Origin: Halodesulfurarchaeum sp.
GTDB taxonomy: Archaea; Halobacteriota; Halobacteria; Halobacteriales; Halobacteriaceae
Direction of reading: 5' to 3'
DNA: 32,515 bases
Assembly (NCBI GenBank): GCA_042216015.1
Contig: JBDGUI010000006.1
Span: forward strand, 9,205 to 41,719
The notes below the pieces were generated by a model that had not been told where the DNA came from, ran no database searches, and saw only the letters and a program-made list of their open reading frames with translations. The position numbers were made by a program, and so were the translations under genes. Shown one piece after another: positions 16,608-29,162 of the stretch (positions are counted from its first letter, which is position 1; each line of letters starts with the position of its first letter).

Positions 16608-17150
16608 TTAGGCGGGTTCGTCGAACTCGTCCTCGAAGTCTCGCACCTCGCGATATTCCTCGACGAACTCGCTCACGTCGAAGTCCCCCCGCACCTCGCT
16701 GAAGGTCTTTGCCGCCGAATCGTCTCCGACCGCCGTCACTGCCTGGGCCATCACCTCGAGGACGGTTCGAACGACTATCTCGTGGAACTCGCGGGCGTCG
16801 AAGACCGCGATCCAGGCCGCCGCGTAGCCGGTGGAACCGTCCTCGCTCGCGTCGTGGGCGACGATTTCCTCGGGATGGGCATCCATCACGAGCCCCATGA
16901 GCGGGACCGTGCCGAACGCCTCCATCTCGGTCCCTTCGGCCGCGAGCGTGTCCGCAAGGACCTCGGTCACCGACTCCGGCAGAAATCGGGAGGGCGGGTG
17001 CGGATCGAGTACGACGGCGTGGGTCTCCCCGCAGTCACACCGGACTTCCCTGAGGCCCAGGTCCAGGTCGTCGCTTTTGATGGTCTCCCCGCAGGGCAAC
17101 TCGATCGACTGGCCGCTCGGTCCCGTTGGAACCCCCGGTTGGGCCGTCAT
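16608..17150 (-). CDS. Conserved haloarchaeal protein (DUF5815-like), possible metal-binding N-terminus
   Basis: IELPCGE..DLDLGLRE..CDCGETHAVVLDPHPPSRFLPE; acidic 180 aa protein coupled to the upstream gene. Confidence 0.7.
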   Translation of the reverse strand: MTAQPGVPTGPSGQSIELPCGETIKSDDLDLGLREVRCDCGETHAVVLDPHPPSRFLPESVTEVLADTLAAEGTEMEAFGTVPLMGLVMDAHPEEIVAHDASEDGSTGYAAAWIAVFDAREFHEIVVRTVLEVMAQAVTAVGDDSAAKTFSEVRGDFDVSEFVEEYREVRDFEDEFDEPA

Positions 17151-17560
17151 GGCCAGTCCTCCCGCTCCACTTCGCCATCAGGTTTGCGCTGTTCGCCCAC
17201 GGTCCAGCCCGCCGCGTCGGCTGCCTCCTGGACTGGCAGGTACTCCCAGCCGGCGGCCTCGGCCCGTTCGCGATCCGACTCGTCGGTGCCGATCACGACG
17301 TAGCGGTCCGATTCGAACTGCTCGCGAACGCTCTCGAGGGTGTCCCGAGCGCCCTTCGGGCCCGAAAAGAAGTCCTCCCGAATGCGTCGCTTCCGGGTGA
17401 AGTTCGTGAGGACGTGGGTCGGTTCGTCGGCCGACACCACGCCCGCATAGCGGGTCCACTGCCGCGCGTCGGCGAAGGCCGTGCCCGGCTCGGCCAGGGC
17501 CTGGAGTGCCGAGAGCTCGAAGGCGAGGGTCATCTCGCCGCCCGCGTCCGGCGTGTCCAT
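17147..17560 (-). CDS. Conserved haloarchaeal protein, degenerate HAD-like fold
   Basis: MTLAFELSAL..FADARQWTRYAGVVS..FFSGP..RYVVIGTDESDRERAEAAGWEYLPV. The start may instead be ATG 17533. Confidence 0.75.
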   Translation of the reverse strand: MDTPDAGGEMTLAFELSALQALAEPGTAFADARQWTRYAGVVSADEPTHVLTNFTRKRRIREDFFSGPKGARDTLESVREQFESDRYVVIGTDESDRERAEAAGWEYLPVQEAADAAGWTVGEQRKPDGEVEREDWP

Positions 17561-17610
17561 ACACCGGTTTCGGGGCGATTCGCGCAAAACGGCTTCGGTC
17601 CGTCCCGGGA

Positions 17611-18867
17611 CTACAGTTCTACGTCGACGTCCAGGTCCTCGAGGTCGAAGCTCTCCTGCAGGAGGACGTCTTTCTGGTCTGCCACCTTCGCGCCGCTGAG
17701 AATGAGGTCCTTGTACTTCGACTGGGCGGCGAGGTCGCCGATGAGGACGCCACCGATGAGTTGGCCGTCCTGGAAGGTGAGTCGCCGCCATGAGGTCTCG
17801 TCGTACTTTCGCTCGGCCTCGTCGTCGCCCTCGGTCGGATAGCCAAAGGAGAGGAACGGGAAGTCGAAGTGGGTGATCGAGTACGAGGAGACCCACCGGA
17901 ACTCCTCGGTCTCGACGTCAGCCCCCTGATCGGCCAGCATCGTCCGGGCGGCCTGACTGCCCTGCTCCTTTGCGGATCCCCACGAGCCGTTCTGGGCCTC
18001 GTCGCCGATGACCGGGTCATGGAAGGTCACGATGTCGCCGGCAGCGTAGATGTCCTCGGCGTCTGTCCGCATGTACTCGTCCGTGTGAATCCCGCCGTTG
18101 GTCTCGACGGTCGTCCCCTGCAGCAACTCGGTGTTGAAATTGAGCCCGATGGCGGCCCCGACGAAGCGACTCTCGTAGCGATCGCCGTTGGCGTCTACCG
18201 TGGCCACAACGTGGCCCTCCTCGTCGGTCTCGAATTGTTCGACGCCGGATTCGAGAACGAGTTCGACGCCGAGGTCGCGCATGGCCTCGTGCATGATCTC
18301 TGCGCCCTCGAGGCTCAGCGCGTAGCGCCACCAGCGATTGCCGCGCATGATGTACCAGGCGTTCTCGAGGTCGTGGGCGCCGGCGATGGCGGCCAGGTCG
18401 ATCCCGAGCAGACCCGCGCCGACGATCACGGCGTTCTCGGCTTCCTCCATCCCCTCCTTGATGTCCCGGGCGTCCTCGAACGTCCAGAAGTGGTGGATGC
18501 CGTCGGCGTGACTCCCCGGAACGGGCAGCTGGGATGGGGTCCCGCCGGTGGCGACCAGCAGTTTGTCGTACCCGATGGTGTCGCCCTCGTGGGTATAAAC
18601 CTCGTGGGCGTCCTCGTCGACCTGCGTGACGTAGGTATTCATCTGGAGGTCGATGTCTCGATCGGAATACCAGCTCTCGTCGTGAATCGAGACCGGCCCC
18701 TCGGGCATCTTGCCCTTCGCAAACTCCTTGATCAGGATCCGGTTGTAGAGCGGTTCCCCCTCGTCGGTGATGACCGTCACGTCCGCGTCCTCGTCGTGTT
18801 CTCGAATTTCCTCGGCGGCGGTGCTGCCCGCGATGCCATCGCCAATAATTACGTACGACGCACTCAT
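17611..18867 (-). CDS. NAD(P)/FAD-dependent oxidoreductase (ferredoxin/rubredoxin reductase-like)
   Basis: YVIIGDGIAG, LYNRILIKE, YDKLLVATGG, VIVGAGLLG, TDEYMRT..IYAAGD. Confidence 0.92.
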   Translation of the reverse strand: MSASYVIIGDGIAGSTAAEEIREHDEDADVTVITDEGEPLYNRILIKEFAKGKMPEGPVSIHDESWYSDRDIDLQMNTYVTQVDEDAHEVYTHEGDTIGYDKLLVATGGTPSQLPVPGSHADGIHHFWTFEDARDIKEGMEEAENAVIVGAGLLGIDLAAIAGAHDLENAWYIMRGNRWWRYALSLEGAEIMHEAMRDLGVELVLESGVEQFETDEEGHVVATVDANGDRYESRFVGAAIGLNFNTELLQGTTVETNGGIHTDEYMRTDAEDIYAAGDIVTFHDPVIGDEAQNGSWGSAKEQGSQAARTMLADQGADVETEEFRWVSSYSITHFDFPFLSFGYPTEGDDEAERKYDETSWRRLTFQDGQLIGGVLIGDLAAQSKYKDLILSGAKVADQKDVLLQESFDLEDLDVDVEL

Positions 18868-19067: not shown

Positions 19068-19307
19068 TCACCCGTCCGCGTAGACGATCTCGGCGATCAC
19101 CCGACGTTCGCCCTCGTCATCGTCGTTTTCGTACTTGTAGCGGACGTCGGGGTCCTCTTCGCGGGTGGCGGCGTGGGACCCGTCGCAGAACGGGTAGTCG
19201 GCGGACAACCCGCACATACAGATGGCGATGTCGCCCTTCTCCTCGCTGACGTCGCGTTCGTCGATGCGGTGGGGTCCGCGTGCGTCGTGTGTGATCTCCC
19301 GGGGCAT
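19068..19307 (-). CDS. CDGSH iron-sulfur domain protein
   Basis: ICMCGLSADYPFCDGSH motif. Confidence 0.92.
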   Translation of the reverse strand: MPREITHDARGPHRIDERDVSEEKGDIAICMCGLSADYPFCDGSHAATREEDPDVRYKYENDDDEGERRVIAEIVYADG

Positions 19308-19510: not shown

Positions 19511-20821
19511 TCAGGACTCGTTCAGGATCCGGTCGGCGGCCTCGAACCCGGCGACGATCCCGCCGTCGAGACTTCGCTCGGGATACTGCGCCCTCGAGGC
19601 CATGCCCGCGTAGTAGACACCGTCCCCGACCGGTTCGCTCAGCTCGTACGGGACGACTTTCTCGAGGTAGCCCCGCTCGTAGACCGGTGCCGTTCGTGGG
19701 TTCCGGGTCGTTTCGATCCAGTTCACCGATTCGCGGTCGAAGTCGGGAAAGAGCGACTCGATCCCGTCGAGCCATCGCTCCTCGATCGCCGCGTCGTCGG
19801 CCTCGAAGAGCGGGTCAGACGCGCTCTGGACGTACTTCGGCACGTAGAGCAGATGCTCGCCCCCGTAGCGGTCGGGCTCGACGAAGTTCGTGTGCTCGAT
19901 GAGTGCGCCAAACGGCGCCGTATCGCCGATGTTGAGCCAGTAGGTGTCCGAAAGCGGTTCGTCCATCGAGATCACCGAGCAGACGGTTCCCTGGAAGTCG
20001 ATCTCGCAGGCGTAGCCAGTCAGGTCCTCGAGGACGTCCGGCATGGCGGCGATCACTACGTCGTCCACCGCCCGTGTGCCTGACTCCTCGCCCTCGGTCG
20101 CGATCGATTCCACGCCGTCGGCACCGACCCGGATGTCGGTCACGCGGGTGTCGGTGACGACCCGCTCCGGGCCGATCTCCGCGAGGAGTGCCTCCACGAG
20201 CCGACCGAAGCCACCCCGGAGGTAGCCAAGCGGCTCGCCCCGAAGCAGGTCCCGCTCGCCCCGGAACCGGACCCGACCGAGCAGCCAGGCGGCGCTCACG
20301 TCGTCCTTCCGCGAGCCGAACTTCGCCTCGAGGAGCGGGAGAAAGAAGTTCTCGTAGACGCCGTCGGTCGTGTGCTCCCGGACGAAGGCCTCGAGGGACA
20401 CGTCCTCGTAGGCCTCGAGTTCCCCGTAGGCGTCGAAATCCGGGATTCCGCCACGGACGTCCACGCCGAGCACGAGCAGTCCGAGCCGGAACGTGTCATA
20501 GAGGCTCAAATACGGGTAGGCGGCGATCTCCCAGGGCGTATCGAGCGGATAGACGGTCCCGTCCATGTAGTAGGCGTTCTTCCCGATCGGCCACTCGAGG
20601 TCGCCGGCGAGGCCGAGTTCCTCGATCAACTCGACGATCGTCTCCTCGGACCTCGAGAGGTGGTGGTAGTAGCGCTCGATCGGGTCGCCGGCGGTCTCGT
20701 AGGTCGCGGCCAGTCCGCCGACCCGGTCGGCCGCCTCGTAGATCCGCACGTCGCGGCCCGCACGCGCGAGTCGGTACCCGGCGGCGAGTCCGGCGATGCC
20801 GCCGCCGACGATGGCGATCAT
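19511..20821 (-). CDS. Flavin-dependent oxidoreductase (amine oxidase/protoporphyrinogen oxidase superfamily)
   Basis: MIAIVGGGIAGLAAGYRL, YEAADRVGGLA, IERYYHHL, GYLRGGF, YPERSLDGGIVAG. Confidence 0.88.
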   Translation of the reverse strand: MIAIVGGGIAGLAAGYRLARAGRDVRIYEAADRVGGLAATYETAGDPIERYYHHLSRSEETIVELIEELGLAGDLEWPIGKNAYYMDGTVYPLDTPWEIAAYPYLSLYDTFRLGLLVLGVDVRGGIPDFDAYGELEAYEDVSLEAFVREHTTDGVYENFFLPLLEAKFGSRKDDVSAAWLLGRVRFRGERDLLRGEPLGYLRGGFGRLVEALLAEIGPERVVTDTRVTDIRVGADGVESIATEGEESGTRAVDDVVIAAMPDVLEDLTGYACEIDFQGTVCSVISMDEPLSDTYWLNIGDTAPFGALIEHTNFVEPDRYGGEHLLYVPKYVQSASDPLFEADDAAIEERWLDGIESLFPDFDRESVNWIETTRNPRTAPVYERGYLEKVVPYELSEPVGDGVYYAGMASRAQYPERSLDGGIVAGFEAADRILNES

Positions 20822-21023
20822 ACCACTCACTCCGCGAGCCCCGTGGAATAGGATTGTGGTCCCGACCTGCCAAGGGACCGCCGTTGGCACAGGGTGGGAC
20901 CACCCGACTGCAGTCCCGTGGTCTCCCCTGCCCACCTCGCTTGGACGGGCCGATACTCGCTGAAACGGGACCCTTCGCGGGGAATCTTAAAACCTTTCCC
21001 CGTCCAACTGCTCCGTACGCACA

Positions 21024-22163
21024 ATGGATATTGCCGATATTGCGACGACGGATTACATCGAGGTTCCCGTCGACCGACGGCTGGGAAAGGTACGCTCGCT
21101 CTTCGAGAAGGAGCACCCAAAGGGGATCATCGTCACCGAGGACGGCGAATACCGGGGGGTCATCACCGAACGTGCACTCCTCCAGTCCCACGTGGAGGAC
21201 GACGCGAAGGCGGATGCCCTGGCGAATCACGCCCCGAAGGTCTCCCGAACCGAGGACATCCGGGAGACCGCCCGGATGCTCGTGGAGGGGAACACCAAGG
21301 TCGCCCCGGTCTTCGAGGACGGCTCGCTCTGGGGCATCGTCACGGAGGATCTGATCCTCGAGGCGGTCCTCGACAACCTCGACGCCCTCGACGTGGCGGA
21401 CATCTACACGACGAATCCAGTCACCATCTCCCAGGACGCGACGGTCGGCCGCGTTATCAACCTGCTCCGGGAGAACGGCGTCTCGCGGCTTCCCGTTCTC
21501 GATGACGGCGCCCTCTCCGGCGTCGTAACCGTTCACGACGTCGTCAACGTCGTCGTCCGGGACATGTCCAAGGCGACGGTCGGGGACCGCCGCGGCGAGG
21601 TCGAGCGCGTCCTCGACCTGCCGGTTTACGACATGATGTCGAGTCCCGTCGAGACCGTCACGCCGGGGGTCAGCGTCGAGGACGGGGTCCGTCGGATGCT
21701 CGAGGGGGACTTCGGCGGGCTCGTCGTCGTCGATCCCGAGGACGAGCGCCGGGTCGACGGCGTCCTGACGAAGACGGACGTGCTGCGGGCACTCACCTAC
21801 ACCGAGGAGTCCCAGATGGACGTCCAGATCACGAACATCGCCCTCCTCGATACCATCTCCAGGGCGGAGATCCGCGAGCAGATCACCGCCATCAGCGACA
21901 AGTACAGCGACATGCAGGTCCAGCACGCCCACGTCCGCTTCCACCAGCACAAGGAGAAACTCCGCGGGACGCCCCTCGTGCAGGCCCAGATCCGGCTGCG
22001 GACCAACCGCGGTCAGGTCGCCGGCACTGGCGAGGGCTACGGCGCCGACAACGCCTTCTACGTGGCCATCGACAAGCTCGAGCGAAACGTCCTCGAACTC
22101 AAGAACATTCGGGCGGACGAGGAGTACGAGGGTCAGTTACTGCGCAAGCTGAACGAGCTGTAA
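21024..22163 (+). CDS. 4xCBS-domain protein with C-terminal HPF/RaiA (S30AE)-like domain; putative ribosome hibernation factor
   Basis: CBS motifs (GVITERAL, GIVTEDLI, VSRLPVLDDGALSGVVTVHDV, GVLTKTDVL), then from Met265 MDVQITNI..HVRF..AQIRL..GYGADNAFYVAIDKLERNV. Confidence 0.8.
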   Translation: MDIADIATTDYIEVPVDRRLGKVRSLFEKEHPKGIIVTEDGEYRGVITERALLQSHVEDDAKADALANHAPKVSRTEDIRETARMLVEGNTKVAPVFEDGSLWGIVTEDLILEAVLDNLDALDVADIYTTNPVTISQDATVGRVINLLRENGVSRLPVLDDGALSGVVTVHDVVNVVVRDMSKATVGDRRGEVERVLDLPVYDMMSSPVETVTPGVSVEDGVRRMLEGDFGGLVVVDPEDERRVDGVLTKTDVLRALTYTEESQMDVQITNIALLDTISRAEIREQITAISDKYSDMQVQHAHVRFHQHKEKLRGTPLVQAQIRLRTNRGQVAGTGEGYGADNAFYVAIDKLERNVLELKNIRADEEYEGQLLRKLNEL

Positions 22164-22195: not shown

Positions 22196-22303
22196 GGATT
22201 CGCTCTGGACCGACCACCGATCCGGTCCTGATTCGTTCTGGACCGACCACCGATCCGGTCCGGATTCGCTCTGGACCGACTATCGGGACTGTCCGGATTC
22301 GAC
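22196..22303. repeat. 33-bp tandem repeat, about 3 copies, between convergent genes and overlapping the radB stop
   Basis: Unit ggattcgctctggaccgaccaccgatccggtcc at 22196, 22229 and (diverged) 22262. Confidence 0.9.
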
Positions 22304-22975
22304 GCCGCTCTCGGTGATGTGGAAGTCGACGCTTTCCCCCTCCGGTTTCGAACGGTGTTTCTCGAGGACCGCCTTCCGGTTCCCGCCGCGATAGCGGTCC
22401 AGGCGGACGATCGTGCCGGTCCAGTGAGAGAGCGTGTGGCCCCCGAGCGGGCGGGGTCGTCCGCTGTCGCTTTCGGGATCGCTGAAGACCTGGTTCGTGA
22501 GGACCACCGCGAGGTCGTGTTTTCGCGCCAGCCCGAGCAGGTGGGTGACCTGGTCGGCCACGGCCCGCAGGGCGTCACCCGTCTCCACGTCGGCGGCGCG
22601 CTTCACGCGATAGAACCCGGTCGCGCTGTCGAGGACGATCAGGTCGAGCTGGTCGCCGAACTCCGCGGCGTCCCGGACGGCCTCGGCCTGCTCCTCGAAG
22701 TCCACTGCCTCGCTCACGATCACGTTTCCCGCGGCGGCGTCCGGATCGGCGGTTTGCCCCTCGAGGATCTGCTCGAAGCGATCGATCGAGAGCCCCTCGG
22801 TGTCGATGTAGAGGGCCTGCCCGCCGCGGGCAGCGACGGCCACGGCGCTTGCCAGGGCGACGTTGGTCTTTCCCGCTCCCGGCGGCCCATAGAGCTGTGT
22901 CGCGGTTCCCCGCTCGAATCCCCCGCCGAGGAGGGAATCGAGTGCCGCACAGCCAGTGGGCACCTCGGCTGTCAC
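22280..22975 (-). CDS. radB: DNA repair and recombination protein RadB
   Basis: PTGCAALDSLLGGGFERG, YGPPGAGKTN, YIDTEG, LIVLDSATGFYR, VVLTNQV, and the RadB-specific KHR motif. GTG start inferred. Confidence 0.93.
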   Translation of the reverse strand: MTAEVPTGCAALDSLLGGGFERGTATQLYGPPGAGKTNVALASAVAVAARGGQALYIDTEGLSIDRFEQILEGQTADPDAAAGNVIVSEAVDFEEQAEAVRDAAEFGDQLDLIVLDSATGFYRVKRAADVETGDALRAVADQVTHLLGLARKHDLAVVLTNQVFSDPESDSGRPRPLGGHTLSHWTGTIVRLDRYRGGNRKAVLEKHRSKPEGESVDFHITESGVESGQSR

Positions 22976-23082
22976 AGCCACCGTTTCTCCGCCATCCCCT
23001 GAAAACCCCCCGGTCTTTCGCCCGGGCCGGCGCAACGTTCTTCCGTGGTGGCATCACACCCTAACACAACCCAATCGCGATC

Positions 23083-25311
23083 ATGAACGAAGTCCAACTC
23101 GAGGTGGCAAAGGCCTACCCGAACGACTCGGGCCGCGGCATCGCCCGCCTCGACCCCGACACGCTGTTGCACCTGAAACTCAGCCCCGGCGACATCATCG
23201 AGATCGAGGGGGCCGAATGGACCGCGGCGAAGGTCTGGCGGGCCGACCGCCAGGACTGGAACAGCGACACCGTCCGCATCGACGGGTTCACCCGCCAGAA
23301 CGCCGACGTCGGCATCGGCGAGCGCGTGACCATCCGCAAGGCCACGACCGAACCCGCCGAGCGGCTGGTGTTGGCCCCGCCGGAGGACGCGAGCGTCCAG
23401 TTCGGCTCCGACGCGGCCGGGATGGTCAAGCGCCAGATCCTCAAGCGCCCCGTCGTCGCCCGCGACATCGTCCCCGTGATGTCGAGCACGAACCACCCCT
23501 TCATGCGCTCGCCCGGGCAGGCGATCCCGCTGATCGCCGTCGAGACCGAGCCGGAGGGAACGGTGCTCGTCGACGAGGACACCGAGGTCGAGTTGCGCGA
23601 GGAGCCCATCGCCGGATTCGAGCGCACCGGCGGCGGCATCACCTACGAGGACATCGGCGGGCTGGAAAACGAGATCCAGCGCGTCAGGGAGATGGTCGAA
23701 CTCCCGATGAAACACCCGCAGGTGTTCAAGAAACTCGGGATCGAACCCCCACAGGGGGTGCTCCTCCACGGCCCGCCCGGAACGGGAAAGACCCTGCTCG
23801 CGAAGGCCGTGGCAAACGAGACCGCCGCGAGCTTCTTCTCCATCGCCGGCCCGGAGATCATCTCGAAGTACTACGGGGAAAGTGAACAGCAACTCCGGGA
23901 GATCTTCGAGGACGCCAAGGACGACTCCCCGGCGATCGTTTTCATCGACGAACTCGACTCCATCGCCCCCAAGCGCGAGGACGTGACCGGTGAGGTCGAG
24001 CGCCGGGTCGTCGCCCAGCTGCTGACGATGATGGACGGCCTCGAGGGCCGGGGCGAGGTCATCGTGATCGCGGCCACGAACCGCGTCGACGCGGTCGATC
24101 CCGCGCTCAGGCGGCCGGGTCGATTCGACCGCGAGATCGAGATCGGCGTCCCCGACGAGACCGGTCGGGAGGAGATCCTCCGCATCCACACCCGGGGGAT
24201 GCCCCTGGCCGACGAGGTGAGCCTCTCCGAGCTGGCCGATGACACCCACGGCTTTGTGGGCGCTGACATCGAGTCGCTCTCGAAGGAAGCCGCGATGCGC
24301 GCGCTGCGGCGGTATCTCCCCGAGATCGACCTCGACGAGCAGGACGTTCCACCGTCGCTCATCGATCGGATGATCGTCACGCAGGGGGACTTCGAGGGGG
24401 CGCTCAACGAGGTCGAACCGAGCGCGATGCGCGAGGTGCTGGTCGAGTTACCGAAGGTCTCCTGGGACGACGTGGGGGGTCTCGAAGACGTCAAGAGCCA
24501 GATCAAGGAGAGCGTCGAGTGGCCCCTCTCGGACGCGGCGGGCTTCGAGCGGCTCGGGGTCAACCCCCCGGCAGGGGTCCTCCTCTACGGGCCGCCGGGA
24601 ACGGGGAAGACGCTGATGGCGAAAGCGGTGGCCAACGAAACCGACGCCAACTTCATCAGCGTTCGGGGCCCCCAGCTCCTCTCGAAGTGGGTCGGGGAGA
24701 GCGAGAAGGCGATCAGGCAGACCTTCCGGAAGGCCCGGCAGGTCAGCCCGGCGGTCGTCTTCTTCGACGAACTCGACAGCCTCGCGCCCGGCCGGGGCCA
24801 GGACGCCGGCAACAACGTCTCCGAGCGCGTGGTCAACCAGCTGTTGACCGAACTCGACGGCCTCGAACAGATGGAGGGCGTGATGGTGATCGGGGCGACG
24901 AACCGCCCGGACATCATCGACCCCGCGCTCATCCGCTCGGGGCGGTTCGACCGGCTCGTGATGGTCGGCCAGCCCGACGAATCGGGGCGAGAGGAGATCC
25001 TCCGGATTCACACCGACGAGACGCCCCTGTCGCCGGACGTGAGTCTGCGCGAGATCGCCGAGCGCACCGAGGGCTACGTCGGCTCCGACCTGGCGACGGT
25101 CGCCCGGGAGGCCGCGATCGAGGCCCTCAGGGAGGATCCAGACGCGGAAACCGTCGAGATGTCACACTTCCGGGCCGCGATCGAGGACGTGCGCCCGACG
25201 GTGACCGACGACCTCCTCGAGTACTACGAGCGGGTCGAGGAGGACCTCACCGGCGGGACCGGCCCGGCCGTCGCCAGCAGGGATCAGGAGCGCCACATCG
25301 GATTCCAGTGA
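23083..25311 (+). CDS. cdc48: CDC48/p97/VAT family AAA+ ATPase
   Basis: N-domain [16 protein letters not shown]; two AAA modules (GPPGTGKT twice, FIDELDS and FFDELDS, PGRFDRE and SGRFDR); C-terminal HIGFQ. Confidence 0.97.
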
Positions 25312-27566: not shown

Positions 27567-29162
27567 ATGGCCGGTGACAGGGCCCTGCTTCGCGAGGCCC
27601 TCTCGAAGGGCGAACGAACGGACGGCCGGGTCGAATTCAAGGAGCGGCTCTCCCGGGAGGTCCACCTCTCGGAGGGTCGCTTCGAGAGCCTGGCCGCACA
27701 ACTCCGTCACCGGGTCCTCTCCGGTGACGGCGAGGCGACCTACGTGGTCGGGGTCACCGACGAGGGGCACGTGGCCGGCATTCCACCGGGGGAGTTCTCC
27801 GAGTCGATGGAGGTCCTGAACCTGATCGCCGAGGAGGCCGGTGCCCACCTCGCCGACGTCGAGACCTGGGGGGCAGAGGGCGGGATCGTCGGCGTGGCGA
27901 CCGTGCGAGATGGCGGCTCCCTCGAGATCGCCTCGGACCACCTCATCGTCGGCACCGCCGGCCACGTCGACCACGGCAAGAGCACGCTCGTCGGCAGTCT
28001 CGTGACGGGTCGCCCGGACGACGGCGAGGGCGGCATGCGCTCGTACCTCGACGTGAAGCCCCACGAGGTCGAACGCGGCCTGAGCGCGGATCTCTCCTAT
28101 GGGGTCTACGGCTTCGACGAGGCAGGCCCCGTCCGGGTGGACAAACCCGACCGGAAATCCGACCGGGCCACGGTCGTCGAATCGGCCGATCGCGTGGTCT
28201 CCTTCGTCGACACGGTTGGCCACGAACCGTGGCTCTCGACGACGATCCGCGGCCTGCTCGGCCAGAAACTCGATTACGGCCTGTTGACCGTCGCCGCCGA
28301 CGACGGGCCGACCGAGACGACCCGGGAGCACCTCGGGGTCCTGCTGGCGACCGACCTGCCCACGATCGTCGCGATCACGAAGACCGATCTCGTCTCCGAG
28401 GATACCGTCGAGGAGGTCCAGCGAGACATCGAGCGCCTGCTCAGACAGGCCGGGCGGAGCCCGCTCTCGGTCGCCCGTCACGGCGTCAGGGCGGCCCTTG
28501 CTGAGATCGGCGACGGCGTCGTCCCGATCGTCCGGACGAGCGCTGTGACGATGGAGGGGCTTCCGACGCTGGACACGATGTTCGAGGAATTGCCGAAGAC
28601 GGCCGCTGCAGGGGGTGAATTCCGGATGTACATCGACCGCACCTACCGGATCACGGGCGTCGGACCGGTGGCCTCCGGGACGATCGAATCCGGGACGGTC
28701 GCCGCCGGCGATGACCTGCTCGTCGGTCCGCTCCCGGATGGGTCCTTCGAGCCGGTCGAGGTCCGCTCGATCGAGATGCACTACCATCGCGTGGATCGGG
28801 CGGAGGCGGGACGGATCGTCGGCATCGCGCTCACGGGGATCGAGGAGGCCGACCTCGAACGGGGGATGGCTCTCGTTCCCCGGTCGAGCGATCCGACGCC
28901 GACCCGACGCTTCGAGGCCGAGGTCATGGTCCTCAACCATCCGACCCGCATCCACGCGGGCTACGAACCGGTGGTCCACCTCGAGACGGTGAGCGAGGCC
29001 GCCCGATTCGAGCCACTCGATGGCCAGCTCCTTCCGGGGGACACGGGTGAGACCGAGGTCGAATTCAAGTTCAACCCCTATCTCGTCGAACCGGGCCAGC
29101 GCTTCGTGTTCCGGGAGGGCCGAAGCAAGGGGGTCGGCACGGTGACCGGGCGGCTCGACTGA
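27567..29162 (+). CDS. Translational GTPase, GTPBP1/GTPBP2-like (EF-Tu superfamily)
   Basis: AGHVDHGKSTL, HEVERGLS, FVDTVGHE, ITKTD, EF-Tu domains II and III, FVFREGRSKGVG; N-terminal extension. Confidence 0.9.
   Translation: MAGDRALLREALSKGERTDGRVEFKERLSREVHLSEGRFESLAAQLRHRVLSGDGEATYVVGVTDEGHVAGIPPGEFSESMEVLNLIAEEAGAHLADVETWGAEGGIVGVATVRDGGSLEIASDHLIVGTAGHVDHGKSTLVGSLVTGRPDDGEGGMRSYLDVKPHEVERGLSADLSYGVYGFDEAGPVRVDKPDRKSDRATVVESADRVVSFVDTVGHEPWLSTTIRGLLGQKLDYGLLTVAADDGPTETTREHLGVLLATDLPTIVAITKTDLVSEDTVEEVQRDIERLLRQAGRSPLSVARHGVRAALAEIGDGVVPIVRTSAVTMEGLPTLDTMFEELPKTAAAGGEFRMYIDRTYRITGVGPVASGTIESGTVAAGDDLLVGPLPDGSFEPVEVRSIEMHYHRVDRAEAGRIVGIALTGIEEADLERGMALVPRSSDPTPTRRFEAEVMVLNHPTRIHAGYEPVVHLETVSEAARFEPLDGQLLPGDTGETEVEFKFNPYLVEPGQRFVFREGRSKGVGTVTGRLD

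What the first reader, a model, noticed from the sequence alone, without database searches (positions are those of the whole stretch)
21024..22163. 4xCBS plus HPF/RaiA-like fusion: candidate energy-sensing archaeal ribosome hibernation factor
Seen: residues 1 to about 260 form four CBS repeats. From Met265 (nt 21816) a roughly 100 aa domain reads MDVQITNI-helix-HAHVRF-AQIRLRT-QVAGTGEGYGADNAFYVAIDKLERNV. Known: this matches the beta-alpha-beta-beta-beta-alpha pattern and the 'y.AiD...kLerql' helix of bacterial HPF/RaiA. Four CBS repeats form AMP/ADP/ATP-binding Bateman modules, as in AMPK-gamma. Inference: adenylate charge gates ribosome silencing in a single polypeptide. Pipelines usually call this only a 'CBS domain protein'. 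I recall recent reports of archaeal CBS-HPF hibernation factors, so the novelty must be checked against the literature.
Basis: partly seen in the sequence, partly recalled or inferred. Interest (0 to 1): 0.72.

Follow-up and report, generated by a model that had tools for sequence, protein, structure and literature searches.

The report
Archaeal ribosome hibernation factor AHA/HibA

Summary
ORF 21024..22163 (+) encodes 379 aa with four CBS motifs (Pfam E 2.4e-37). [quoted passage not shown]

The protein aligns end to end with Pyrococcus abyssi HibA, which was solved on the ribosome (9SR9 series, E 1.8e-46). It is the positional and phylogenetic orthologue of Haloferax volcanii AHA (HVO_2384): 66% identity to the Hfx. 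gibbonsii copy, the same convergent radB neighbour, and the same clade at 100/99 support.

Cryo-EM, knockouts and AMP binding for this family appeared in 2025-2026. The PTC-inserting loop, the CBS3/CBS4 adenine-nucleotide pocket and the decoding-centre motif EKxRG are all kept here. Whether adenylates actually gate ribosome binding is still unproven in the literature.

Two small leads remain. The convergent pairing with radB is conserved across Halobacteria and matches published co-purification. The two lysines reported as acetylated in HVO_2384 map to the decoding-centre contact.

Verdict: a true member of an already known family, of low interest.

The parts
21024..22163 (+). AHA/HibA-type gene, 379 codons plus stop
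   Evidence: ORF list and translation. Full-length match to P. abyssi HibA chain 9sr9_H, E 1.8e-46. 66% identity to the radB-adjacent Hfx. gibbonsii gene.
21024..21386 (+). CBS1 and CBS2 (residues about 1-121), the first Bateman module; the G-h-h-T-x-x-D motif has no Asp here (G45...A51, G104...L110)
   Evidence: Pfam CBS in 4 stretches. Secondary structure of the full model. Motif scan. The boundaries are approximate and read from the model.
21393..21563 (+). CBS3 (residues about 124-180) with GVVTVHD. D172 is invariant in 34 of 34 aligned relatives. T129, S154, R155 and P157 equal the ATP-contacting T137, S162, R163 and P165 of HibA.
   Evidence: Best Pfam stretch 124-177. Alignment A1. HibA ATP contact table. 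Residue check.
21564..21617 (+). Extended loop (residues 181-198). It corresponds to the 'PTC loop' of HibA (190-207) and 'loop 3' of AHA, which insert into the peptidyl transferase centre. The G187-x-R189-x-G191-E192 core is conserved.
   Evidence: Gap-free alignment to HibA across the loop. HibA loop definition and contacts. Column counts G 27/34, R 19/34, G 22/34, E 19/34. Model pLDDT is below 50 at 182-193.
21618..21803 (+). CBS4 (residues about 199-260) with GVLTKTD. V247, T249 and D252 correspond to the ATP contacts I254, T256 and D259 of HibA.
   Evidence: T249 and D252 are each kept in 33 of 34 rows.
21816..22160 (+). [quoted passage not shown] It holds E311-K312-L313-R314, which aligns with HibA E323-K324-F325-R326 (contacts to 16S h18 and h44 and to uS12).
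   Evidence: AlphaFold2 model. Foldseek hits to YfiA/HPF/RaiA. Sub-threshold PF02482. HibA contact tables. Residue check.
20983..20992 (+). Conserved A/T-rich element AATCTTAAAA, 32-41 nt upstream of the ATG. Probably the TATA box of the gene, which would give a very short leader.
   Evidence: Sequence. Alignment of 10 upstream regions with invariant A, T, T, A columns in this element, including Haloferax. The promoter role is inferred, not tested.
22280..23035 (-). radB, convergent neighbour, with 116 nt between the two stop codons
   Evidence: NCBIfam RadB NF006861 at 379.5 bits (cut-off 278) and TIGR02237 at 250.3 bits (cut-off 172.4). Pfam Rad51. The pairing is conserved in 36 of 74 and 17 of 24 related loci, always convergent.

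Best explanation
The ORF encodes the orthologue, most likely in a Halodesulfurarchaeum genome, of the archaeal ribosome hibernation factor published as AHA (Haloferax volcanii HVO_2384) and HibA (Pyrococcus abyssi).

By homology to the solved complexes it would work as follows:
- The C-terminal HPF/RaiA domain sits in the mRNA/tRNA channel of the 30S subunit at the decoding centre.
- The N-terminal four-CBS disc sits on the 50S subunit over the A and P sites.
- The long loop of CBS3 (residues 181-198) reaches into the peptidyl transferase centre.

The single chain therefore bridges both subunits. It blocks translation and keeps idle 70S ribosomes intact through starvation, which speeds regrowth. 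An adenine nucleotide, preferentially AMP, binds at the CBS3/CBS4 interface.

Shown here: the architecture, the fold, orthology, and conservation of the loop, pocket and decoding-centre residues. Taken from the literature on orthologues: ribosome binding, translation inhibition, the knockout phenotypes and AMP binding. Inferred and still unproven anywhere: that the AMP/ATP ratio switches binding on and off.
For: Architecture and fold: CBS in 4 stretches, E 2.4e-37. [quoted passage not shown] The full model has pLDDT 83.4 with only the loop 182-193 and the linker 261-263 below 50. Its CBS disc matches SriA/B, MJ1225, SriD, Dri and AMPK gamma at E 2e-22 to 1e-15.

Homology to solved factors: 9sr9_H, E 1.8e-46, in one stretch 3-376 against 6-388. 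The 9SR9 to 9SRF and 9T7H entries are the HibA-ribosome entries. A profile of the C-terminal domain finds the two archaeal CBS-HPF chains (8e-37 and 1.4e-23). Of the 16 remaining weak hits (E 0.05-2.9), 11 are bacterial HPF/RaiA chains.

Orthology to AHA:
- 66% identity to the 380-aa Hfx. gibbonsii protein.
- That protein lies next to a convergent RadB gene, as here, and RadB is HVO_2383.
- Its computed 42,504 Da and pI 4.93 fit the 42,521 Da and pI 4.87 reported for HVO_2384.
- In a maximum-likelihood tree of 43 rows the ORF falls in the clade holding that gene, split from the long-loop paralogues at 100/99 support.

Functional residues:
- 6 of 12 HibA ATP-contact residues are identical (T129, S154, R155, P157, T249, D252), and 3 more are Ile to Val.
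- The ribose-binding Asp of G-h-h-T-x-x-D is present only in CBS3 and CBS4, where AHA holds its two AMP.
- The loop has the same length as in HibA and keeps the GxRxGE core.
- E311, K312, R314, R324, R354 and Y368 equal the HibA 30S contacts E323, K324, R326, R336, R366 and Y380.

Literature on orthologues:
- AHA cryo-EM, two bound AMP, loop 3 in the PTC; the knockout shows a regrowth lag, about 4.4-fold fewer CFU, and loss of 32 ribosomal proteins and of 70S particles.
- HibA in three conformations, translation inhibition in vitro, about 60% fewer 70S in the deletion strain, and Kd AMP 12 uM.
Against: Nothing was measured in this organism, and no RNA run could be listed (see Tried and rejected).

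The HPF domain is below the curated thresholds of PF02482 (20.1 against 23.7 bits) and TIGR00741.

Several HibA ribosome contacts are not kept: Y195 to V186, which stacks on the PTC adenine in HibA; R299 to A289; and the basic tail R376, R379, K382, R383 to A364, E367, G370, Q371. This mapping was made by hand, and the residues here were checked. Details of binding in a high-salt cytoplasm may therefore differ.

The gating idea lacks support so far. The HibA authors saw no clear effect of AMP or ATP on ribosome binding. AHA protein levels do not change with growth phase.

Orthologues also co-purify with RadB, GINS23, primase and the acetyltransferase Pat2, so the ribosome may not be the only partner.
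Confidence: 0.9

Rival explanations
1. The protein's main job is regulating DNA recombination or replication through RadB, RadA or GINS, as proposed in 2013 for Pab0961. Ribosome binding would be secondary in this lineage.
For: Pab0961 (now HibA) was pulled down with RadB and a Sir2 deacylase. Hvo_2384 was reported, as a personal communication only, to interact with RadA and RadB in vivo (passages). TK1186 co-purified with GINS23 and primase. radB is the convergent neighbour here, and also in 36 of 74 and 17 of 24 related haloarchaeal loci.
Against: Two independent cryo-EM studies found the orthologues on most idle ribosomes, at amounts similar to ribosomal proteins. The knockouts lose 70S ribosomes. 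All ribosome-facing elements are conserved here. Convergent genes are not co-transcribed, so the pairing may be inherited gene order. Abundant ribosome-associated proteins are common contaminants of pull-downs (my inference).
Confidence: 0.05
2. A generic CBS regulatory protein whose C-terminal domain is a dsRBD-like RNA binder used in another process. The HPF likeness would be only a shared fold.
For: PF02482 is below threshold. dsRBD proteins appear among the weaker fold matches from rank 27 on. One NCBI-sourced name describes the family as CBS domains fused to a 'double-stranded RNA-binding domain' (the name is cut off in the listing).
Against: There is full-length homology to proteins solved on the ribosome, and orthology to HVO_2384. 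The 23 best listed fold matches are all hibernation factors. Published phylogeny places archaeal and bacterial HPF in one superfamily.
Confidence: 0.03
3. The ORF is not a working gene, being either a silent remnant or a chance open frame in G+C-rich DNA.
For: High-GC DNA gives many long spurious ORFs. A 484-aa antisense frame overlaps this one. No expression data were available.
Against: The frame is intact. It shares 96-97% identity with sister genomes and 62-74% across Halobacteria, with conserved length. An upstream A/T element is conserved. It is the only HPF-type domain in this assembly.
Confidence: 0.01

Closest known systems
[quoted passage not shown]
   Same: 4xCBS tetrad plus C-terminal HPF domain, with an extended CBS3 loop. 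Ribose-binding Asp only in CBS3 and CBS4, where AHA holds two AMP. 66% identity to the Hfx. gibbonsii orthologue, the same convergent radB neighbour, and the same tree clade. The lysines reported as acetylated in HVO_2384 (K311, K313) are K310 and K312 here.
   Different: Another genus, 379 instead of 380 residues, and no experimental data. I compared with the Hfx. gibbonsii sequence because the Hfx. volcanii sequence and its PDB entry 12DM were not among the tool results. Hfx. gibbonsii also has a long-loop paralogue. None was found in this 86.6%-complete assembly.
HibA, Pyrococcus abyssi Pab0961 (Nat Commun 2026, PMC13324472; PDB 9SR9 to 9SRF, 9T7H)
   Same: End-to-end alignment, E 1.8e-46. 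The PTC loop has the same length. 6 of 12 ATP contacts are identical and 3 more are conservative. The decoding-centre motif E-K-x-R-G is kept.
   Different: A distant relative. Y195 of the loop is V186 here. The basic C-terminal tail residues R376, R379, K382 and R383 are A364, E367, G370 and Q371 here (hand mapping). The protein is acidic (computed pI 4.74), as expected for a halophile.
Long-loop haloarchaeal CBS-HPF paralogues (PDB chain 9l96_a, 406 aa, 'CBS domain-containing protein')
   Same: The same two-module architecture. It is the best PDB sequence hit, E 4.7e-70.
   Different: They carry about 25 extra, glycine-rich residues in the CBS3 loop and a C-terminal tail ending in GWWL or similar. 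They form a separate clade at 100/99 support. They are present in only some genomes: 2 of the 5 searched, and as a second, longer gene in 3 of 3 same-genus genomes. The tool gives no title or organism for 9l96, and a literature search for '9L96' found 0 papers.
Bacterial HPF / RaiA (YfiA, protein Y), Pfam PF02482 Ribosomal_S30AE
   Same: [quoted passage not shown] By the published superpositions the binding site on the 30S subunit is the same.
   Different: They have no CBS module. The sequence score is below the Pfam and TIGRFAM cut-offs. The last helix is much longer here (residues 77-113 of the domain). The HibA paper reports two archaeal-specific insertions.
AMPK gamma subunit (eukaryotic energy sensor)
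   Same: A four-CBS disc. Fold matches at E about 1e-17 to 1e-15, TM 0.64-0.74 normalised to the target. The published nucleotide sites correspond to AMPK gamma sites 3 and 4.
   Different: It is not part of a kinase complex and is fused to a ribosome-binding domain. Sequence identity is 15-18%.
CBS-only archaeal hibernation factors: SriA-D / ARC-A,P (Methanosarcinia) and Dri (Thermoproteota)
   Same: CBS tetrads that occupy tRNA sites. Dri and AHA both put a loop into the PTC. They are the top fold matches of the CBS module.
   Different: They have no HPF domain, act as separate or doubled CBS tetrads, and bind in a different orientation. ATP-triggered release has been reported for ARC only (abstract).

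Membership tests
AHA/HibA (archaeal 4xCBS-HPF hibernation factors) | Four tandem CBS motifs forming one CBS tetrad at the N-terminus | tested here: met
   PF00571 in 4 stretches, E 2.4e-37. The model shows four beta-alpha-beta-beta-alpha units. Fold matches to CBS tetrads.
AHA/HibA (archaeal 4xCBS-HPF hibernation factors) | [quoted passage not shown] | tested here: met
   Model of residues 265-379. The 23 best listed Foldseek rows are hibernation factors.
AHA/HibA (archaeal 4xCBS-HPF hibernation factors) | Full-length sequence homology and orthology to an experimentally characterised member | tested here: met
   9sr9_H E 1.8e-46 over 3-376. 66% identity, shared radB synteny and the same clade as the Haloferax HVO_2384-type gene.
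AHA/HibA (archaeal 4xCBS-HPF hibernation factors) | [quoted passage not shown] | tested here: met
   The loop 181-198 is present, has the same length as HibA 190-207, and keeps the GxRxGE core. Insertion into the PTC itself cannot be tested here.
AHA/HibA (archaeal 4xCBS-HPF hibernation factors) | Adenine-nucleotide pocket at the CBS3/CBS4 interface | tested here: met
   At sequence level only. 6 of 12 HibA ATP contacts are identical, including five of the six polar side-chain contacts (T129, S154, R155, T249, D252); D96 is N90. D172 and D252 are kept. Binding was not measured.
AHA/HibA (archaeal 4xCBS-HPF hibernation factors) | Binds 70S ribosomes, blocks translation and preserves ribosomes in stationary phase | not testable with these tools
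   Known only for the Hfx. volcanii, P. abyssi and T. barophilus orthologues.
Bacterial HPF/RaiA family as defined by Pfam PF02482 / TIGR00741 | Score at or above the curated family threshold | tested here: not met
   20.1 bits against 23.7 (PF02482) and 14.7 bits against 40.9 (TIGR00741). It is a homologous fold but not a member by the curated models.
Bacterial HPF/RaiA family as defined by Pfam PF02482 / TIGR00741 | HPF fold | tested here: met
   Foldseek E 1.7e-4 to 2.9e-3, TM up to 0.79.
AMPK gamma | CBS tetrad acting as the regulatory subunit of a heterotrimeric kinase | not tested
   Only the fold of the CBS tetrad matches. I did not search for AMPK alpha or beta homologues. The fusion to HPF argues for a different effector.

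The most novel reading that the evidence does not exclude
Besides AMP, two further inputs may control this factor.

(a) RadB as a real partner. The convergent AHA-radB pair is kept in 36 of 74 and 17 of 24 haloarchaeal loci. The Pyrococcus and Haloferax orthologues were reported to co-purify or interact with RadB. RadB might sequester AHA away from ribosomes, or couple restart of recombination and replication to energy state.

(b) Lysine acetylation as an off-switch. K310 and K312 correspond to K311 and K313, which are reported as acetylated in HVO_2384. They lie in the HKEKLRG hairpin, whose HibA counterpart K324 touches 16S h18 at the decoding centre. Acetylation could therefore switch off 30S binding.

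The main texts of the two 2026 structure papers do not contain the words radB, synteny or operon. I did not search them for acetylation.
Probability: 0.12. Interest if true: 0.55.

Novelty: already known. Interest (0 to 1): 0.15.

Why it matters
The family matters. It is the main ribosome-preserving factor of many archaea, reported in 3160 homologues across 17 phyla. It also links bacterial HPF and eukaryotic AMPK gamma in evolution.

This copy adds no new kind of biology. It extends a known orthologous group to a small-genome, most likely sulfur-respiring, haloarchaeon. That genus assignment and physiology rest on the names of near-identical relatives and on my recollection.

Its practical value is for annotation. 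The NCBI-sourced names in the listing are 'CBS domain-containing protein', except two entries ('Protein containing two CBS domains...' and 'hypothetical protein'). The gene can be renamed as a ribosome hibernation factor AHA/HibA.

The radB pairing and the position of the acetylated lysines are cheap, testable leads on how the factor is regulated. The papers state that this question is open.

Tried and rejected
1. RNA evidence. The look-up of sequencing runs (kind rna) on the gene listed no RNA holder. This says nothing about expression.

2. Complex prediction of AHA (alignment A1) with RadB (A4). The verdict was 'no answer', score 0.00 against a mark of 0.32, and controls were not run. It is evidence neither for nor against binding.

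3. Whole-genome scan of the own assembly with PF02482 found nothing at E <= 1. The scan did not even recover the HPF domain of this gene, so it is uninformative for divergent archaeal HPFs. I replaced it with a scan using the archaeal profile A2, which found only this gene (E 8.4e-50).

4. Sir2 (PF02146) was not found in the own assembly, which is 86.6% complete. This neither supports nor excludes the acetylation idea here. I did not look for other deacetylases or for Pat2.

It is about 55-60% identical by eye to the Hfx. gibbonsii long-loop paralogue (E 6e-116), so it is not the HVO_2384-type protein.

6. Test of whether HibA's ribosome-contact residues in the C-terminal domain are better conserved here than the rest. 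A hand count gave roughly 13 identical of 54 contact positions, which is no enrichment. This was not computed by a tool, and I make no claim from it.

7. The radB pairing outside Halobacteria. None of the 3 more distant loci (30-33% identity) and neither of the 2 long-loop loci had RadB within 1.5 kb.

9. Supplementary figures of PMC13324472 (file MOESM1) were too large to read, and I did not open the appendix of PMC13728122. The residue-level AMP contacts of AHA could therefore not be compared directly. I used HibA's ATP contact table instead.
Full report
THE OBSERVATION. The window is G+C-rich (0.62-0.71). It carries an ATG-started ORF at 21024..22163 (+) of 379 codons. Pfam finds CBS (PF00571) in four stretches at E 2.4e-37. 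The last 115 residues scanned alone give only a sub-threshold hit to Ribosomal_S30AE (PF02482: E 0.0011, 20.1 bits against a cut-off of 23.7) and to TIGR00741 yfiA (E 0.032). On sequence profiles alone the HPF likeness is a hint, not a finding.

THE FOLD. I built two alignments from relatives. A1 has 34 full-length rows. A2 has 24 rows of the C-terminal domain and short relatives. The AlphaFold2 model of residues 265-379 (pLDDT 82.5) is strand-helix-strand-strand-strand-helix with a long last helix. Against the PDB, its 23 best listed Foldseek rows (ranks 1-26) are YfiA, HPF, RaiA, plastid pY, RafH or hibernating-ribosome chains, with TM up to 0.79. dsRBD proteins come only after them. A profile of A2 against PDB sequences finds two archaeal CBS-HPF chains (8e-37 and 1.4e-23). 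Of the 16 remaining weak hits, 11 are bacterial HPF/RaiA. The full-length model (pLDDT 83.4) is confident except in residues 182-193 and in the inter-domain linker 261-263. Its CBS disc matches SriA/B, MJ1225, SriD, Dri and AMPK gamma.

WHAT IT IS. A PDB sequence search gives a one-stretch, end-to-end match (3-376 against 6-388, E 1.8e-46) to chain 9sr9_H. The data-availability section of Madru et al. (Nat Commun 2026, PMC13324472) lists 9SR9 to 9SRF and 9T7H as the P. abyssi HibA-ribosome structures.

The best 120 database relatives are 378-385 aa and at least 68% identical. The top ones (96-97%) are named Halodesulfurarchaeum sp. Sixteen of the 120 already carry a JGI name that includes 'ribosome-associated translation inhibitor RaiA'.

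Among 80 related genomic loci, Haloferax gibbonsii has a 380-aa copy at 66% identity. It is directly followed by a convergent Rad51-family gene, exactly as in the window. NCBIfam confirms the window's neighbour as RadB at 379.5 bits. RadB of Hfx. volcanii is HVO_2383 (passages of PMC7776575). AHA is HVO_2384. The computed mass and pI of the Hfx. gibbonsii protein (42,504 Da, 4.93) fit the 42,521 Da and 4.87 reported for HVO_2384 (passages of PMC12607858). Pluchon et al. 2013 already called Hvo_2384 the homologue of Pab0961.

A maximum-likelihood tree of 43 rows separates a 'short-loop' clade from a 'long-loop' paralogue clade at 100/99 support. The short-loop clade holds this ORF and the radB-adjacent genes of Haloferax, Halobaculum, Halococcus and Salinibaculum. 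I defined the two groups by loop length beforehand. The ORF is therefore the orthologue of AHA/HibA.

HOW IT WORKS (by homology). In Hfx. volcanii lysate cryo-EM, the HPF domain of AHA sits in the 30S mRNA/tRNA channel, where bacterial HPF binds. [quoted passage not shown] An extended loop of CBS3 enters the peptidyl transferase centre. [quoted passage not shown] The knockout regrows late from stationary phase, gives about 4.4-fold fewer colonies, and loses 32 ribosomal proteins and 70S particles.

P. abyssi HibA shows the same 30S binding, with three positions of the CBS module. It inhibits translation in extracts, but only when the C-terminal domain is present. A T. barophilus deletion has about 60% fewer 70S ribosomes. 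Its CBS module binds AMP (Kd 12 uM) more tightly than ADP (65 uM) and ATP (113 uM). The authors saw no clear effect of AMP or ATP on ribosome binding. The EMBO J discussion states the adenylate-gating idea as a hypothesis still to be tested.

WHAT IS CONSERVED HERE. I mapped HibA residues onto this protein from the printed alignment. I checked the numbering against the residue names in HibA's contact tables (supplement 2, parts 1 and 5) and verified the residues and their conservation in A1 by script.
- Nucleotide pocket. The 12 ATP contacts of HibA (D96, T137, D139, V140, I141, I161, S162, R163, P165, I254, T256, D259) correspond to N90, T129, N131, P132, V133, V153, S154, R155, P157, V247, T249 and D252. 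Six are identical and three are Ile to Val.
- CBS motif. G-h-h-T-x-x-D ends in Asp only in CBS3 (D172, 34 of 34 rows) and CBS4 (D252, 33 of 34 rows). The motif definition is recalled. This fits nucleotide sites in the second Bateman module only.
- PTC loop. The loop (181-198) has the same length as in HibA and keeps G187, R189, G191 and E192. It is the one long low-confidence stretch in the model, as expected for a loop ordered only on the ribosome.
- 30S contacts. E311, K312, R314, R324, R354 and Y368 equal the HibA contacts to h18, h44, h31 and uS7.
- Not kept. HibA Y195 is V186 here, R299 is A289, and the basic tail residues R376, R379, K382 and R383 are A364, E367, G370 and Q371.

COPY NUMBER AND PARALOGUES. 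The own assembly (1.68 Mb, 51 contigs, 86.6% complete) has one full-length copy. It also has one HPF-type domain by the archaeal profile A2.

Haloarchaea also have a long-loop paralogue type with about 25 extra glycine-rich residues in the loop and a GWWL-like tail. PDB chain 9l96_a is of this type. It was found in 2 of 5 genomes searched: Hfx. gibbonsii with one copy and Halobaculum rarum with two. Three of three same-genus genomes hold a second, longer AHA-type gene of 394-395 codons. It was not found here, nor in the 96%-identical sister genome.

A 282-aa stand-alone CBS tetrad elsewhere in the genome is closest to PH1780 rather than to Sri proteins.

SURROUNDINGS. Upstream lies a divergent flavin amine-oxidase-like gene (19511..20935, -). 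Downstream lie radB (22280..23035, -) and a CDC48 ATPase (23083..25311, +). An A/T element, AATCTTAAAA, 32-41 nt before the ATG is conserved in 10 aligned upstream regions, Haloferax included. It is probably the TATA box (inferred).

The convergent radB pairing is frequent. It occurs in 36 of the 74 loci that have at least 900 nt downstream, and in 17 of 24 evenly drawn same-order genomes. It is always convergent, with a median gap of 108-151 nt. The other neighbours are kept far less often in the 80 loci: CDC48 in 24 of 80 and the amine-oxidase-like gene in 6 of 80.

This pairing is notable for two reasons. Pab0961 was pulled down with RadB and a Sir2 deacylase. Hvo_2384 was reported, as a personal communication only, to interact with RadA and RadB. 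The main texts of the two 2026 papers contain none of the words radB, synteny or operon. A complex prediction for AHA with RadB gave no verdict.

A SECOND LEAD. HVO_2384 co-purifies with an inactive Pat2 acetyltransferase and is reported as acetylated at K311 and K313. In the Haloferax-type protein KEKLRG starts at residue 311, and here at 310. These lysines are therefore K310 and K312 of the conserved HKEKLRG hairpin. K312 aligns with HibA K324, which contacts 16S h18 (G484, C485, G496) at the decoding centre. Acetylation there could weaken 30S binding. This is my inference and is untested. No Sir2 gene was found in this incomplete assembly.

NOVELTY AND VERDICT. The family, its structure on the ribosome, its phenotype and its AMP binding were published between October 2025 and October 2026. 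The October 2025 bioRxiv preprint 10.1101/2025.10.11.676729 I saw only in the search listing. The other two papers are Nat Commun April 2026 and EMBO J October 2026. [quoted passage not shown]

This is a straightforward orthologue of a known factor. I score it already known, interest 0.15.

Noticed in passing
window 22280-23035 (-) next to 21024-22163 (+); loci L007-L086 and L095-L119: The AHA gene and radB lie tail to tail. The pairing recurs in 36 of 74 and 17 of 24 haloarchaeal loci and is always convergent. It is kept far more often than the other neighbours (CDC48 in 24 of 80, amine oxidase in 6 of 80). Orthologues were reported to co-purify or interact with RadB.
   Followed up: partly
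window 21951-21959 (K310-E311-K312): The two lysines reported as acetylated in HVO_2384 (K311, K313) are conserved here. They fall in the HKEKLRG hairpin, whose HibA counterpart K324 contacts 16S h18 at the decoding centre.
   Followed up: partly
window 22196-22301: A 33-bp tandem repeat of 3.2 copies at 86% match. Each full unit holds a GGACCG...CGGTCC inverted repeat. It fills the AHA-radB intergenic space and runs into the 3' end of radB. The core occurs nowhere else in the own genome or in the 91 other loci held. It is absent from the four closest relatives aligned.
   Followed up: partly
own genome against G046, G097, G167 and G001, G004: A second, long-loop AHA paralogue (PDB 9l96 type) exists in some haloarchaea and, as a longer second gene, in three same-genus genomes. 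It was not found in this 86.6%-complete assembly or in its 96%-identical sister genome.
   Followed up: partly
window 27567-29162 (+): A 531-aa EF-Tu/EF-1-alpha-like GTPase with an N-terminal extension of about 120 aa. It reaches no curated NCBIfam cut-off; the best is EF-1-alpha at 158 bits against 502. It is an uncharacterised translation-GTPase paralogue 5 kb from the hibernation factor.
   Followed up: no
L029 (contig CAZENJ010000087.1): A contig labelled 'uncultured Thermotogae bacterium' carries an 87%-identical AHA fragment and the same amine-oxidase neighbour at 81%. It is almost certainly a mis-binned haloarchaeal contig.
   Followed up: no
L002 1201-2049 (-) (own genome, contig C6): A stand-alone 282-aa CBS tetrad closest to P. 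horikoshii PH1780 (2yzq, E 1.6e-34). Its matches to Sri chains are only weak. Whether it binds ribosomes is unknown.
   Followed up: partly
window 16608-17896 (-) and 19068-19307 (-): Two conserved domains of unknown function (DUF5815, DUF7124) and a small CDGSH iron-sulfur protein lie a few kb upstream.
   Followed up: no
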